A program made the position numbers and the translations under genes. Below are positions 2,433 through 60,117 of a stretch of 64,000 nucleotides of DNA, in pieces. Numbering within the stretch: the stretch's first letter is position 1; each line of letters starts with the position of its first letter. This DNA is from an uncultured Candidatus Nitrosopelagicus sp. (lineage in GTDB: Archaea > Thermoproteota > Nitrososphaeria > Nitrososphaerales > Nitrosopumilaceae): positions 15,278-79,277 of the forward strand of contig CAYFOW010000001.1 in NCBI GenBank assembly GCA_964344885.1. The letters run 5' to 3'. Below the pieces are notes generated by a model. That model saw only the letters and a list, made by a program, of their open reading frames with translations. It did no database searches and was not told the DNA's origin.

Positions 2433-2674
2433 TTGGAAAAACTTTCCAAAAATACCAAAAAACTTTCTGTAACAATTTAGGACTTTCCAAAAACTGAAAA
2501 AACTTTCCAAAAATACCAAAAAACTTTCCAGACTTGTACAATAACTTTACAGCATAGATTTTTGATTTACGTATACGTAAAATATCAATTAGTTTCAGAT
2601 TATAAAGTACTGATAACTTTCAGAAAGATTTTTTGTTAAAATGGAAAGTTTTGTGTTTGTACAGGAAAGTTTCC
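2433..2674. repeat. Palindrome-centred phased repeat element, copy 1
   Basis: TTTCC-type cores at 2443, 2464, 2484, 2504, 2525, 2546; palindrome TTTACGTATACGTAAA at 2566-2581; reverse cores at 2602, 2622, 2643, 2664. Confidence 0.9.
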
Positions 2675-4644: not shown

Positions 4645-5223
4645 ATGAAAAAAATTGAGGCCATAGTAAAAACTGCGAATTTTTCAGGATTACGAGATGA
4701 ATTACTCATAATGAATCAAATTATTTTAGATCATAGAAACCTTTCAACATCAAATGTAGTTAGTAAAAGAGGAGGTAGTAGAGTTGGAAGTACTGGATTG
4801 CAAAGCATTCCGTTGACAAAGATCGAACTAGTAGTAGATGATAAATCAGCACACGATATAATCAAAGTAATAGCACAAAAATCAGGATTAGGTGCAGAAT
4901 CAAAAAGTAAGATCTACATTTCGGAGATGATTGAGGCAGTAGACATGGATACAATGGAAGGGCACTCAGATAAAGAAGAGGTAAAAACAAAAAAAGTTGC
5001 AAAGATCAAAGTAAAAGAATCAAACAAGGCAAGACTAATTCCATTGCAAAAATACACACTAAACAGAATTTCAGAAGTATATGAAAATAACAAAGAACGA
5101 CTGCAATCAGAATTCAGAATTAAATCATTTTCAGATTTTGTTAACTTTTGCATAATGGGTTATTTGCCTGAAATTGAGCAACAGTTAGCACAAGAGCTAA
5201 TCATGTATGAGAGAAAATTCTAA
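4645..5223 (+). CDS. P-II-like protein with C-terminal RHH-like extension, paralog 1
   Basis: MKKIEAIVK, KIELVVDD, KIYIS; tail ...IKSFSDFVNFCIMGYL. Confidence 0.75.
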   Translation: MKKIEAIVKTANFSGLRDELLIMNQIILDHRNLSTSNVVSKRGGSRVGSTGLQSIPLTKIELVVDDKSAHDIIKVIAQKSGLGAESKSKIYISEMIEAVDMDTMEGHSDKEEVKTKKVAKIKVKESNKARLIPLQKYTLNRISEVYENNKERLQSEFRIKSFSDFVNFCIMGYLPEIEQQLAQELIMYERKF

Positions 5224-57238: not shown

Positions 57239-58207
57239 ATGCGTGGTAAAAAGAAAATTCTGTTAACACGGAAATTACATGAATTTGCATTAAAAAAATT
57301 AGAAAAAAAATATGACATAAAAATCCATTATGGAAAAATTCCAATGCCAAAACGAAAGTTAATCAAAGAAATTCATAATATGGATGGACTAATTTGTTTT
57401 CCGTATGACATTATTGATAGAGATGTAATTGATAGTGCAAGAAAATTATTAACAATTAGCACATTTAGCGTAGGATTTGATCATATAGATATCAAATATG
57501 CAAAAAGTAAAGGAATTATTTTAGGATATACACCAGAGGTATTAACAAAAGCTACTGCAGATTTAACGATTTCATTAATGCTTGATGTAATGCGAAGAAT
57601 TTCAGAAGGAGACAGATTAATCAGAAATGGGAAATGGAAAGAGATTTTTGGTGCACATGATTACGTAGGAGTTGATATTTCAGAAAAAACACTTGGAATT
57701 ATAGGATTAGGAAGAATTGGAGATGCAGTGGCAAAAAGAGCATCAGCATTTGAAATGAATGTAATTTATCATAACAGAACAAGGCTTTCAAAGAAAATTG
57801 AGGATCATCTCAATGTAAAATATGCATCATTAAATGAATTGATAAAAAAGAGTGATGTAATTTCATTACACGTTCCAGATTCACAAAGTACTAGAGAAAT
57901 GGTAGATATGGAATTTCTAAAAAGGATGAAAGATAATGCATTTTTAATTAATACATCTAGAGGAAAGATCATCAAAGAAAATGATCTAATTAGTGCATTA
58001 AAACAGAAAGTTATTGCCGGTGCAGGATTAGATGTTTTTTTTAATGAACCAATCAATAAAAGCCATAAACTAACCAAAATGGAAAATGTTGTTTTAGCAC
58101 CACATATTGGAAGCTCTACAAAAGAAACACGGGAAAAAATGGCACAAATAACAATAGATAATTTAGATCAAGGAATTAAGAGATTAAAACCGAAATATTC
58201 AATTTAA
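57239..58207 (+). CDS. D-isomer-specific 2-hydroxyacid dehydrogenase (glyoxylate/hydroxypyruvate reductase-like)
   Basis: SVGFDHID, GIIGLGRIG, INTSRG, AGLDVF.NEP, PHIGS. Confidence 0.93.
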   Translation: MRGKKKILLTRKLHEFALKKLEKKYDIKIHYGKIPMPKRKLIKEIHNMDGLICFPYDIIDRDVIDSARKLLTISTFSVGFDHIDIKYAKSKGIILGYTPEVLTKATADLTISLMLDVMRRISEGDRLIRNGKWKEIFGAHDYVGVDISEKTLGIIGLGRIGDAVAKRASAFEMNVIYHNRTRLSKKIEDHLNVKYASLNELIKKSDVISLHVPDSQSTREMVDMEFLKRMKDNAFLINTSRGKIIKENDLISALKQKVIAGAGLDVFFNEPINKSHKLTKMENVVLAPHIGSSTKETREKMAQITIDNLDQGIKRLKPKYSI

Positions 58208-58263
58208 TTTAAAAAGAGATTGTAAAAAATAATTTTCTGATCTGTTACTGTGATTTCTATCAA

Positions 58264-58453
58264 CAGAAATTTCCATATGATCAGACAATCTTTCCATAAA
58301 TTTTCAAAACTTTCCAAAAACTGAAAAAACTTTCCATGTTCATTTCAGAACTTTCCAAAAATCACTATAACTTTCAATAGTTATTTGAGATTTTACGTAT
58401 ACGTAAATTATATCATAATAGCATAATGGAAAGATTTGTGGGATAATGGAAAG
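58264..58453. repeat. Palindrome-centred phased repeat element, copy 2
   Basis: TTTCC-type cores at 58270, 58291, 58311, 58331, 58352, 58372; TTTACGTATACGTAAA at 58392-58407; GGAAAG at 58428 and 58448. Confidence 0.9.
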
Positions 58454-58513
58454 ATTATGAGTGTATTTGTCAAGAAATTACTCAATTAAATAATCATTAG
58501 TGTAGATTACAGA

Positions 58514-58798
58514 TTATTTTTTCATGGTGAGATCAATTTGTATAAGTTCATCAGGGTCACTTCGAATACAATCAGTTCCAATTGCCTTTAATTCATTGAA
58601 TTGAATCAATCCTTGTGGAAGCTTCTTTTGTTCTTGTAAAAGACGTAATTTGCCACGGACTATATTTTTATGACGCACACAGGTTACTCCAACCATATAT
58701 TCATCAGATTCTACAGAAATTGAAATAACAAAATTTGGAGGGTTAACACAATCTCTGCCACTTTCTTTTACTGAACATCGGTCAGGAATCAATACCAT
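58514..58798 (-). CDS. Small hypothetical protein, possible Zn binder
   Basis: C..., C.NPP, C..H residues; 94 aa. Confidence 0.65.
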   Translation of the reverse strand: MVLIPDRCSVKESGRDCVNPPNFVISISVESDEYMVGVTCVRHKNIVRGKLRLLQEQKKLPQGLIQFNELKAIGTDCIRSDPDELIQIDLTMKK

Positions 58799-58818
58799 AT
58801 AGTTTTGAGAATAGGATA

Positions 58819-60117
58819 TTAATTTTGGTGTACTAATTTAGAAAAATCCCATAGAGGATCATTTTGTTTTTTGAAATCACCGAGTATTCCCTGTTCCTGC
58901 AATTTTTTAATTACAAATGCAGAAAATACAGGAGCACCAGATGCACCAGGCGAATTATAGTTTATGATATGGTATGAATTCTCATCATATAACTCCATTA
59001 CATCAGGCAGAAATTTTCCTTCAGGGGTAATTACAGGAGTACGTATTCCAGAAGTTCCACGTTTTGTAAAAAAAGACGGTTTAACAGAAGGTATGAATTC
59101 CTTCACTCTTGCTACCATTGCAGATTTTGAAACAGAGCTAAGAAATTCTTTAGATATTAGTGATAGAAAATCAGGATTTACTAATAATTTTCTCGTACTT
59201 CCAGATAATACATCAGTGAATTTAGAAAATAATGATGACATATCAGTCGATATTCCAGAATAGGTTTCAGGAGTTGGTACAGGTACAGCATTAGGTCCGA
59301 TTTCAGTACAACCATGTGCACGTTTAATCCAATGTGGATCAAGGAATGGAAATTCTGAAAAACGTGCAACTGAGTATATGTTTGTGTTAACAAGATTTTC
59401 ATGGGATTTATCAGAGACCCAATATTCGCCACGAAAGTGTAAATCAGAAAAGTCAGATGCTAGACCAAATTGTTTTGCAATATCTAATGAATTTCCACCA
59501 GCACAGTTTATTACAAAACTTGTCTCTACAAAAGTATTATCTGTGAAATCTAATTTTAATTTATTATTAATTTTTGAGATATTTTTTACATTTTTTCTAA
59601 ATAGGAATTTTATTCCATTTTGTTGGCTAATACTTTGTAGAGAACTTGTAAGCATACCATAATCTGTCGATACATCACGACTACAAAAAAGACCAGAAAA
59701 ACATTCTACGTTTGGTTCACGTTTTTTTAACTCATTACCATATAGAAGTTCCAATTCGTTTTCAGGAATTCCGTTTTGTTGACCCCATTTCATGTATTTT
59801 TCTAAAACAGTGTGTTGAGATTCATCTAATGCAACTTCAATTGTACCGACTTCTGACCAAGGTACTGACATTTTTTGTGATAATAGTTTCCATAAATCTC
59901 TAGAGAGTAAAGCAGATTTTGCAAGGATTTTACGTTTCATGGGATCAAGATAAAATGGTGAATGAAGTACGCCAGTATTTCTACTACTAGTATGAAGAGC
60001 AACTGAATTTTCTTTTTCAATTAGGCATACATTTAGATCATATAATTCAGAAATCCAATATGCAATTGAATTTCCCAATACACCTCCACCAATTATAGAA
60101 ATATCAAATTTTTCCAA
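58819..60117 (-). CDS. FAD-dependent oxidoreductase (L-2-hydroxyglutarate oxidase-like)
   Basis: IIGGGVLG, HTSSRNTGV.H, FRGEY, PF..PH, GPNA, NYNSPGASGA. Confidence 0.88.
   Translation of the reverse strand: MEKFDISIIGGGVLGNSIAYWISELYDLNVCLIEKENSVALHTSSRNTGVLHSPFYLDPMKRKILAKSALLSRDLWKLLSQKMSVPWSEVGTIEVALDESQHTVLEKYMKWGQQNGIPENELELLYGNELKKREPNVECFSGLFCSRDVSTDYGMLTSSLQSISQQNGIKFLFRKNVKNISKINNKLKLDFTDNTFVETSFVINCAGGNSLDIAKQFGLASDFSDLHFRGEYWVSDKSHENLVNTNIYSVARFSEFPFLDPHWIKRAHGCTEIGPNAVPVPTPETYSGISTDMSSLFSKFTDVLSGSTRKLLVNPDFLSLISKEFLSSVSKSAMVARVKEFIPSVKPSFFTKRGTSGIRTPVITPEGKFLPDVMELYDENSYHIINYNSPGASGAPVFSAFVIKKLQEQGILGDFKKQNDPLWDFSKLVHQN

What the first reader, a model, noticed from the sequence alone, without database searches (positions are those of the whole stretch)
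58264..58453. Second copy of the element ~55.8 kb away with the same geometry but mostly different spacers
Seen: identical palindrome at 58392-58407, again between convergent genes. Left-core offsets from the centre are -130/-109/-89/-69/-48/-28, versus -131/-110/-90/-70/-49/-28 in copy 1. Right cores are at +28/+48 in both copies (copy 1 also has +69/+90). Only a 28-bp block (ACTTTCCAAAAACTGAAAAAACTTTCCA; 2482-2509 and 58309-58336) is shared exactly. Rough estimate at ~33% GC: the chance of a second exact 16-mer in 64 kb is about 1e-4. Inference: conserved motif and spacing with diverged linkers points to purifying selection on a dispersed protein-binding site family rather than recent transposition; no TSD or transposase was seen.
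Basis: partly seen in the sequence, partly recalled or inferred. Interest (0 to 1): 0.85.

Follow-up and report, generated by a model that had tools for sequence, protein, structure and literature searches.

The report
Phased protein-docking arrays around a palindrome
One lineage of marine ammonia-oxidising archaea carries four gene-less DNA elements, each with rows of an 8-letter word spaced two helix turns apart around a perfect 16-letter palindrome; selection has kept the word and the palindrome intact, so they are almost certainly docking sites for DNA-binding proteins, and a small AbrB-type protein found only in this lineage is the best candidate binder.

Summary
The palindrome TTTACGTATACGTAAA and phased ACTTTCCA boxes lie at 58269-58454 and again at 2441-2670. 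The whole 1.34-Mb genome, an AmoA-encoding thaumarchaeon, has four such copies.

Origin and age:
- In same-genus species (about 70% nt identity) the flanking convergent genes abut with 0 bp between them, so each copy is a 320-340-bp insertion.
- Relatives at 90-99% identity, from independent assemblies, all keep the copies at the same loci.

Selection: among orthologous copies the palindrome never varies (0/48 columns). Boxes vary in 6/175 columns, spacers in 77/460 and the outer intergenic DNA in 122/598 (p = 8e-9).

Dynamics and geometry:
- Unit number varies between strains, and copies 1 and 3 exchange sequence.
- The box register relative to the palindrome is the same in every copy, but the two arms are offset by 5 bp, so they are not mirror-symmetric.

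Candidate binder: the only other box cluster in the genome is the promoter of a 53-aa AbrB/Sso7c4-fold gene. Its homologues keep the same boxes upstream, and within the genus the gene was found only in this lineage.

I found no TIR, TSD, transposase, RNA family or DUE. The cellular role is unresolved. An earlier scan note describes mirror-symmetric arrays beside an AbrB-fold gene in Caldivirga.

The parts
58208..58526 (.). Copy 2, the whole lineage-specific insert (319 bp) between two convergent genes
   Evidence: In same-genus genomes G024, G048 and G068 the two stop codons overlap (TTAA) with no spacer. The insert adds four codons to the 94-aa gene.
58269..58376 (+). Copy 2, left arm. Six boxes: 58269 AATTTCC, 58289 TCTTTCC, 58309/58329/58350 ACTTTCC, 58370 ACTTTCA. 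Spacing 20-21 bp
   Evidence: The boxes are conserved in the 95% and 90% relatives.
58392..58407 (.). Copy 2, the perfect 16-bp palindrome TTTACGTATACGTAAA. Its central 12 bp alternate pyrimidine and purine
   Evidence: It is invariant in all four paralogues and in every orthologue fetched.
58428..58454 (-). Copy 2, right arm. Two inverted boxes (GGAAAGA at 58428 and 58448)
   Evidence: The first box is mutated to GAAAAG in the 90% relative L074.
2441..2550 (+). Copy 1, left arm. Six boxes at 2441, 2462 (ACTTTCT), 2482, 2502, 2523 and 2544 (ACTTTAC)
   Evidence: Unit number varies between strains (+3, +1, -3 units).
2566..2581 (.). Copy 1, the same palindrome
2602..2670 (-). Copy 1, right arm. 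Boxes at about 2602 (ATAAAGT) and 2622 (AGAAAGA) are degenerate; boxes at 2643 and 2664 (GGAAAGT) are intact
   Evidence: The degenerate boxes are intact (GTAAAGT, GGAAAGA) in clade B orthologues, which also carry a fifth box.
57239..58207 (+). Left flanking gene, a D-isomer 2-hydroxyacid dehydrogenase
   Evidence: Pfam PF02826 and PF00389
58514..58798 (-). Right flanking gene, a 94-aa protein with no Pfam family

Best explanation
**What it is.** The element is one of four paralogous, gene-less nucleoprotein assembly sites fixed in one lineage of marine ammonia-oxidising archaea. Each copy has three parts:
- a left row of 5-7 ACTTTCCA boxes;
- a perfect 16-bp palindrome;
- a right row of 2-5 inverted boxes.
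The boxes are spaced 20-21 bp apart (two helical turns), in a register fixed relative to the palindrome.

**Shown.**
- The copies were inserted after the split from other species of the genus.
- They have since stayed in place.
- Selection has preserved the boxes and the palindrome while the spacers drifted.
- The rows gain and lose 20-21-bp units and exchange sequence between copies.

**Inferred.**
- The boxes are bound side by side on one face of the helix by a small AbrB/Sso7c4-fold dimer. The candidate is the 53-aa protein encoded on contig C5 at 4922-5080, in a region that also encodes GmrSD-type and EVE-domain proteins and a weak integrase-like ORF. Its own promoter carries three copies of the same box.
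- The palindrome either binds a second dimeric factor or acts as a flexible hinge.
- The result is a high-avidity docking platform. Its most likely role is architectural, or titration of the regulator.

It is not an active transposon, an RNA gene or a replication origin.
For: **Family and geometry**
- The genome has four copies with identical architecture and register.

**Origin by insertion**
- Copy 2 and copy 3 are absent from same-genus species, where the flanking genes abut with 0 bp between them.

**Stability**
- All relatives at 90-99% identity, from independent assemblies, keep the copies at the same loci.

**Selection**
- Variable columns among orthologues: palindrome 0/48, boxes 6/175, spacers 77/460, outer intergenic 122/598.
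- Fisher test, boxes plus palindrome against spacers: p = 8e-9.

**Array dynamics**
- Unit number differs between strains, and adjacent units change in concert.
- Copies 1 and 3 form a mosaic.

**Link to the AbrB-fold protein**
- The only cluster of three or more ACTTTCC outside the four elements lies at C5:4847-4903, directly upstream of a PF04014 gene.
- The box TTACTTTCCAAG is nearly invariant upstream of 10 homologues at 55-87% aa identity.
- The gene was found in G000 alone among 41 genomes of the genus, which is the lineage that carries the arrays.
- Its closest solved relatives are Sso7c4-type archaeal AbrB dimers.
- Bacillus AbrB reads TNCCA/TGGNA, and the box contains TTCCA (PMC3738160).
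Against: - No binding data exist. The link to the AbrB-fold protein rests on a shared 7-11-nt word and on co-occurrence in a single lineage, which counts as one evolutionary event.
- Twelve other thaumarchaeal genomes with a homologue of the protein have no arrays.
- In the clade B relative, two of the three promoter boxes are degenerate, yet its arrays are intact.
- Nothing identifies what reads the palindrome.
- Gene conversion between copies could add to the observed conservation.
- The boxes were defined on the reference sequence, which biases the conservation test somewhat. By my rough estimate, not computed, halving the neutral expectation would still leave the deficit significant.
- The cellular role is inference only.
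Confidence: 0.45

Rival explanations
1. The element is a decayed or domesticated non-autonomous mobile element: a MITE or foldback-like element, or a miniature integrative element. On this reading the phased boxes are subterminal transposase sites or integrase arm-type sites, and the palindrome is the recombination core. It would be similar to an attP site, or to the ends of Tn7 or Mu.
For: - Each copy is an insertion relative to other species of the genus.
- The copies sit at a tRNA-Thr 3' end and at the 3' ends of protein genes. These are the targets preferred by integrated elements in Thaumarchaeota (PMC6563490).
- The arms are asymmetric, with the left longer than the right in all four copies.
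- The genome has tyrosine-integrase-like genes.
- Clade B carries extra foreign DNA directly at the right border of copy 1.
Against: - There are no terminal inverted repeats apart from the boxes themselves, and no convincing target duplication.
- The copies are only 55-82% alike.
- There is no presence/absence polymorphism across about 10% sequence divergence.
- The boxes and palindrome are under purifying selection in place. A dead MITE would not show this.
- No copy was found in IMG/VR or in JGI metagenomes.
Confidence: 0.2
2. The boxes are mini-ORB-like sites for the single Orc1/Cdc6 protein. The elements would then be accessory replication origins, or Orc1 sinks that modulate initiation.
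For: - The genome's own ORB elements upstream of orc1 contain TGGAAATA, against TGGAAAGT in the boxes.
- Archaeal origins have inverted ORB or mini-ORB sites flanking an AT-rich centre, and TTCC is a core ORB motif (PMC1904270).
- Mapped onto a complete relative genome, the loci lie far from oriC, at roughly a quarter of the chromosome on either side.
Against: - Only 6 of 8 bases are shared with the ORB core. The G-string and ORB flanks are missing.
- The centre is 77-78% AT, against 97.5% for the native DUE.
- No orc1 gene lies next to any copy.
- The copies sit between convergent genes.
- GC skew was uninformative, even at the native origin.
Confidence: 0.1
3. The elements are centromere-like or decoy sites. 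Either they are chromosomal partition or bridging sites, comparable to parC/ParR or to the omega heptad arrays, or they are incompatibility decoys that titrate a replication or partition protein of an invading plasmid or virus.
For: - Phased short boxes in direct and inverted rows around a dyad are typical of plasmid centromeres and of origin-plus-maintenance modules (own knowledge: R1 parC, pSM19035 omega sites, EBV oriP FR and DS).
- The number of copies per chromosome is small and fixed.
- Copy number within the rows changes quickly between strains.
- The candidate binder lies in a region that also encodes GmrSD-type, EVE-domain and weakly integrase-like proteins.
Against: - No ParA/SegA-type ATPase or par operon lies next to any copy.
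- No matching plasmid or virus was found in IMG/VR.
- This reading overlaps the best explanation and differs from it only in the cellular role.
Confidence: 0.15

Closest known systems
AbrB/SpoVT-family operators (Bacillus AbrB TGGNA/TNCCA sites; archaeal Sso7c4)
   Same: - The box contains TTCCA, which fits TNCCA.
- The candidate binder is a 53-aa swapped-hairpin protein whose closest solved relatives are Sso7c4 structures.
- AbrB binds multiple motifs in any orientation, possibly as higher oligomers (PMC3738160).
   Different: - AbrB half-sites are 4-5 bp apart; here the boxes are 20-21 bp apart.
- The rows hold up to 7 boxes and flank a separate palindrome.
- The sites lie at gene 3' ends rather than in promoters.
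- Sso7c4 is described as a chromosomal protein that binds and bends DNA (abstracts listed); no sequence-specific site for it is known to me.
Plasmid centromeres built from short repeat arrays (R1 parC/ParR; pSM19035 omega heptads)
   Same: - Two rows of short boxes flank a central region.
- A small beta-sheet DNA-binding dimer binds them cooperatively.
- The same box serves as an operator in the binder's own promoter (own knowledge).
   Different: - Those repeats are contiguous (7 or 11 bp), sit on plasmids and lie next to the par genes.
- Here the period is two helical turns, the sites are chromosomal and gene-less, and there is a perfect central palindrome.
Archaeal oriC (ORB or mini-ORB arrays flanking a DUE)
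   Same: - Inverted arrays surround an AT-rich centre.
- The box shares TGGAAA with this genome's own ORB elements.
   Different: - There is no G-string, no DUE-grade AT tract and no adjacent orc1.
Bacterial intergenic repeat elements (REP/BIME) and MITEs
   Same: - Gene-less elements of 200-350 bp.
- Inserted between convergent genes.
- Several copies per genome.
   Different: - There are no hairpin units or TIRs, and I ran no search for a RAYT.
- The copies are only 55-82% alike.
- They are fixed in place and under selection there.
Mirror-symmetric phased arrays beside a Cas2-fold/AbrB-fold gene pair in Caldivirga
   Same: - An archaeal chromosome with about five fixed sites.
- Mirror-oriented, regularly spaced arrays.
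- An AbrB-fold protein proposed as the binder.
   Different: - The motif there is 34-42 bp, and the largest array sits beside the gene pair.
- Here the box is 8 bp, the candidate gene is remote from the arrays, and the centre is a palindrome.

Membership tests
MITE / non-autonomous transposon | Terminal inverted repeats at the element ends | tested here: not met
   All-against-all BLAST of the four copies with 450-bp flanks finds only the boxes, the palindrome and the central 173 bp shared by copies 1 and 3. There are no shared termini.
MITE / non-autonomous transposon | Target-site duplication | tested here: inconclusive
   Empty sites from relatives define the inserts as 58208-58526 (window) and L052 2375-2717 (C7:2375-2717, outside the window). 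There is no direct repeat at the junctions. Weak, decayed look-alikes of the gene 3' ends lie inside the right flanks.
MITE / non-autonomous transposon | Presence/absence polymorphism among close relatives | tested here: not met
   Every contig at 90-99% identity that spans a locus carries the element.
Archaeal oriC | ORB consensus with a G-string, next to orc1/cdc6 | tested here: not met
   The native ORB is AGAGTGGAAATATAGGGGT, beside orc1 on contig C14. The element boxes share only TGGAAA, and no orc1 lies nearby.
Archaeal oriC | Duplex unwinding element | tested here: not met
   The central 73 bp are 77-78% AT. The native DUE reaches 97.5% AT over 40 bp.
Archaeal oriC | Initiation activity | not testable with these tools
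   GC skew is uninformative even at the native origin. Marker-frequency data would be needed.
Repeat-array centromere (parC-type) | Helically phased short repeats in arrays | tested here: met
   The period is 20-21 bp in both arms of all copies.
Repeat-array centromere (parC-type) | Adjacent partition ATPase and centromere-binding genes | tested here: not met
   The flanking genes are metabolic genes, a tRNA gene and a methyltransferase gene.
attP-type site of a heterobivalent tyrosine integrase | Adjacent integrase, and attL/attR products after integration | tested here: not met
   No integrase lies next to any copy. The integrase-like ORFs are on contigs C5, C25, C29 and C44. Both arms remain joined in every copy.
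AbrB/SpoVT-family operator | TNCCA/TGGNA-type motif, also present in the regulator's own promoter | tested here: met
   The box ACTTTCCA contains TTCCA. Three boxes lie upstream of the PF04014 gene and are conserved in homologues (PMC3738160).
AbrB/SpoVT-family operator | Physical binding by the protein | not testable with these tools
   Needs EMSA, DAP-seq or ChIP.
Known RNA family | Match to an Rfam covariance model | tested here: not met
   The only hit in the four loci that reaches its family's gathering score is the neighbouring tRNA-Thr; two weak sub-threshold matches lie outside the arrays.

The most novel reading that the evidence does not exclude
A horizontally acquired AbrB-fold regulator has seeded a new set of chromosomal sites built from its own operator box. 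The four arrays would act together as one of three things:
- an archaeal centromere or chromosome-bridging system, with the sequence exchange between copies 1 and 3 hinting at physical pairing;
- accessory origins;
- chromosomal decoys that titrate or handcuff a replication or partition protein of an invading plasmid or virus.

None of these has been described in Thaumarchaeota.
Probability: 0.2. Interest if true: 0.85.

Novelty: new variant of a known kind. Interest (0 to 1): 0.58.

Why it matters
- Streamlined marine ammonia oxidisers have almost no spare DNA. In sister species these very gene pairs share their stop codons. Four 300-bp gene-less inserts kept under selection therefore point to a real function.
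- To my knowledge no centromere, architectural site or regulator sink has been described in Thaumarchaea; my literature check was limited to one survey of integrated elements and a few keyword searches.
- The data give a concrete, testable pairing: a 53-aa AbrB-fold protein and the ACTTTCCA box.
- They may also show how a newly acquired DNA-binding protein gains new chromosomal targets.
- On the practical side, the arrays vary in unit number between strains, which makes them usable as a typing marker. They also break short-read assemblies; several contigs end inside copy 1.

Tried and rejected
- **IMG/VR scans.** Scans for three phased boxes and for the palindrome returned only unrelated tandem repeats or chance hits.
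- **JGI metagenome scan.** A search for one box plus the palindrome gave one chance hit.
- **Family-wide genome scans.** The palindrome was sought in 100 genomes and phased boxes in 200. The only hits were coding 21-bp repeats.
- **Search for an array inside the C5 region.** No array was found there.
- **GC and AT skew along contigs C1, C7 and C14.** The signal follows gene orientation and shows nothing even at the native origin.
- **Counts of TACGTA, GTATAC and related words.** Counts are close to their Markov expectations, so they give no sign of restriction avoidance. The 14-bp near-copy of the palindrome at C7:36039 lies inside what looks like a ribosomal protein S17e-like gene (my reading of the translation, not tested) and is probably chance.
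- **Neighbour of copy 4.** The 174-aa lineage-specific protein is a membrane-anchored, His/Met-rich protein, not a DNA binder.
- **Conserved partner of the AbrB-like gene.** No neighbour gene is shared across 13 loci.
- **Bacterial promoter and terminator scan.** Hits were at chance level.
- **Apparent array in G211.** A 21-bp array there is a coding repeat.
- **Position of copy 4 on a complete relative genome.** It could not be placed, because its neighbourhood is absent from G048.

Full report
**1. Observation**

- The 16-mer TTTACGTATACGTAAA occurs exactly twice in the window, at 2566-2581 and 58392-58407. No further hit appears with up to two mismatches, and none of 100 dinucleotide-preserving shuffles gives two hits.
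- ACTTTCCA is enriched at both places.
- Copy 2 lies between the stop of a 2-hydroxyacid dehydrogenase gene (+) and the stop of a 94-aa gene (-).
- The 28-bp block is identical in both copies and sits at the same distance from the palindrome.

One correction concerns the geometry.
- Measured symmetrically by heptamer centres, the left boxes lie at -26.5, -47, -68, -88, -108, -128 (-149).
- The right boxes lie at +31.5, +51.5, +72, +93, +114.
- This register is identical in every copy, so the rows are coupled to the palindrome.
- The two arms are nevertheless 5 bp, half a helical turn, away from mirror symmetry.

**2. Organism and copy number**

- The assembly is 1.34 Mb in 64 contigs, 33% GC and 98% complete.
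- It encodes archaeal AmoA, and named best hits of its proteins come from Nitrosopumilaceae. It is therefore a small-genome ammonia-oxidising thaumarchaeon.
- It carries four copies of the element:
  - C1:17843, which is copy 1 in the window;
  - C1:73669, which is copy 2;
  - C7:2557, copy 3, between a D12 adenine methyltransferase gene and the 3' end of tRNA-Thr;
  - C45:336, copy 4, in a lineage-specific stretch of metabolic genes.
- A scan for clusters of boxes finds no partial arrays at contig ends.
- All four copies share one plan: 5-7 direct boxes, the palindrome, then 2-5 inverted boxes. The left arm is always the longer one.
- The box consensus is a-A-a-a-ACTTTCCA-w-w-a.

**3. Origin by insertion**

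- *Copy 2.* In three same-genus genomes (about 70% nt identity in the flanking genes), the dehydrogenase gene and the 94-aa gene overlap by their stop codons (TTAA). G000 has 319 extra bases at that point, and the 94-aa protein gained four residues.
- *Copy 3.* In four relatives the methyltransferase stop codon abuts the discriminator base of tRNA-Thr with 0 bp between them. G000 has 343 extra bases.
- *Transposon marks.* The junctions show no direct repeat, and the copies share no termini.
- *Distribution.* I did not find the element in:
  - 100 family genomes searched for the palindrome;
  - 200 family genomes searched for phased boxes;
  - IMG/VR or JGI metagenomes.

**4. Stability and selection**

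Public assemblies hold close relatives of this lineage.
- A seawater run has a 3.6-kb contig about 91% identical across 57700-59000, with the element in place.
- Protein-cluster look-ups gave further contigs for all four loci.
- Every contig that spans a locus carries the element, in three haplotype groups for copy 2 (100%, about 95%, about 90%) and two clades for copy 1.
- Variable alignment columns across these orthologues:

| Region | Variable columns |
|---|---|
| Palindrome | 0/48 |
| Boxes | 6/175 |
| Spacers | 77/460 |
| Outer intergenic DNA | 122/598 |

- Boxes plus palindrome against spacers gives Fisher p = 8e-9.
- The boxes were defined on the reference, so up to half of the expected neutral changes could be hidden. 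By my rough estimate (not computed), the deficit would remain significant under that correction.
- Independent assemblies also rule out an assembly artefact.

**5. Dynamics**

- The left row of copy 1 differs between strains by +3, +1 and -3 units.
- Two adjacent units of copy 3 changed in concert between near-identical strains.
- Copy 4 carries three perfect 21-bp units.
- Copies 1 and 3 align collinearly over the central 173 bp. They form a mosaic:
  - copy 1 of G000 is 82% identical to copy 3;
  - copy 1 of clade B is 84% identical to copy 3;
  - the two orthologous copies 1 are only 78% identical to each other.

  This implies ectopic conversion between loci that lie hundreds of kilobases apart on a syntenic complete genome.
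- Copies 2 and 4 share little with the others beyond the boxes and the palindrome (about 55%).

**6. Candidate binding protein**

- *The only other box cluster.* Outside the four elements, only one place in the genome has three ACTTTCC within 60 bp: C5:4847-4903. By my rough Poisson estimate, about 0.002 such clusters are expected by chance.
- *What lies there.* It is directly upstream of a 53-aa gene of the AbrB/MazE/SpoVT family (PF04014). The same region also encodes a split GmrSD-like protein, an EVE-domain protein and a weak integrase-like ORF.
- *Conservation of the boxes.* Homologues of the gene occur in a dozen other thaumarchaeal MAGs at 55-68% aa identity and in clade B at 87%. They keep the same upstream layout, and TTACTTTCCAAG is nearly invariant. 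This is the signature of an autoregulatory operator.
- *Distribution in the genus.* The gene was found in G000 alone among 41 genomes. That is the one lineage with arrays, although this counts as a single evolutionary event.
- *Fold and known specificity.* The closest solved structures are Sso7c4-type archaeal AbrB dimers. Bacillus AbrB reads TNCCA/TGGNA motifs in any orientation (PMC3738160), and the box contains TTCCA.
- *Against the link.* The 12 other genomes with a homologue have no arrays. Clade B has two degenerate promoter boxes but intact arrays.

**7. Alternatives tested**

- *Replication origin.* The native origin beside the single orc1/cdc6 gene has ORB elements containing TGGAAATA followed by a G-string, plus a DUE that is 97.5% AT. 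The element boxes share only TGGAAA, the centre is 77-78% AT, and no orc1 gene is adjacent. Skew analysis was uninformative.
- *RNA gene.* No Rfam family matches the arrays.
- *Mobile element.* There is no TIR, TSD or insertion polymorphism. However, the insertion sites (a tRNA 3' end and gene 3' ends) are those favoured by thaumarchaeal integrated elements (PMC6563490). Clade B also has unrelated DNA inserted at the right border of copy 1.
- *Position on the chromosome.* On the complete genome G048, orc1 lies at 0.3 kb. The copy 3 locus is at about 260 kb and the copy 2 locus at about 909 kb of 1.2 Mb. The sites are therefore neither near the origin nor at the terminus.

**8. Reading**

- *Shown.* This is a lineage-specific family of four inserted, now fixed, gene-less elements. 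Their boxes, palindrome and register are kept by selection, while spacers and unit number drift.
- *Inferred.* A small AbrB-fold dimer binds cooperatively along one face of each arm, since the 20.4-bp period equals two turns. The palindrome binds a separate factor or acts as a hinge; its central 12 bp alternate pyrimidine and purine.
- *Unresolved.* The cellular role could be architectural or bridging, regulator titration, segregation or a decoy.

I found no description of such elements in a survey of thaumarchaeal mobile elements. An earlier, unchecked note of this scan reports mirror-symmetric arrays linked to an AbrB-fold gene in Caldivirga.

Noticed in passing
G000 contig C14:13270-13570 (outside the window): The native replication origin lies upstream of the single orc1/cdc6 gene. 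It has two direct ORBs (ATATTTTCATGCCTAGAGTGGAAATATAGGGGT), one inverted ORB, several GTTAAC-containing palindromes and a DUE of about 55 bp that is 97% AT. A second small AbrB-like gene lies just upstream.
   Followed up: partly
G000 contig C5:2100-9700 (locus L054): This looks like a mobile or defence island. It holds a GmrSD-like gene split into 168-aa and 625-aa ORFs (the latter with a Schlafen/AlbA_2 domain), an EVE-domain gene, the 53-aa AbrB-like gene, a 623-aa protein of unknown function and a 396-aa weak tyrosine-integrase-like ORF.
   Followed up: partly
Locus L095 (clade B), right of copy 1; corresponds to window ~2720: Homology between the two clades ends just after ...ATATTTTAAAAAA, about 60 bp beyond the last box. 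Clade B has at least 1 kb of unrelated DNA with small ORFs there, whereas G000 has the ADH gene. This suggests an indel or integration event at the element border.
   Followed up: partly
window 58514-58526: The 94-aa gene ends ...LIQIDLTMKK* in G000 but ...LIQLD* in relatives. The insertion replaced the shared TTAA stop overlap and added four codons.
   Followed up: yes
Loci L091, L092, L096-L099: Several short-read metagenome contigs end inside or just after copy 1, so the arrays break assemblies. L089 carries a 61-bp (three-unit) duplication relative to G000.
   Followed up: yes
G000 contig C7:36039-36052: A 14-bp copy of the palindrome core (TTACGTATACGTAA) lies inside a gene that looks like ribosomal protein S17e (codons L-R-I-R-N). 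It is probably chance.
   Followed up: partly
G000 contig C45:531-720 (locus L053): Two tiny ORFs lie between copy 4 and the 174-aa gene. One is a 31-aa ORF with a CxxC...HxxxC pattern, called as a gene in some assemblies. The other is about 28 aa.
   Followed up: no
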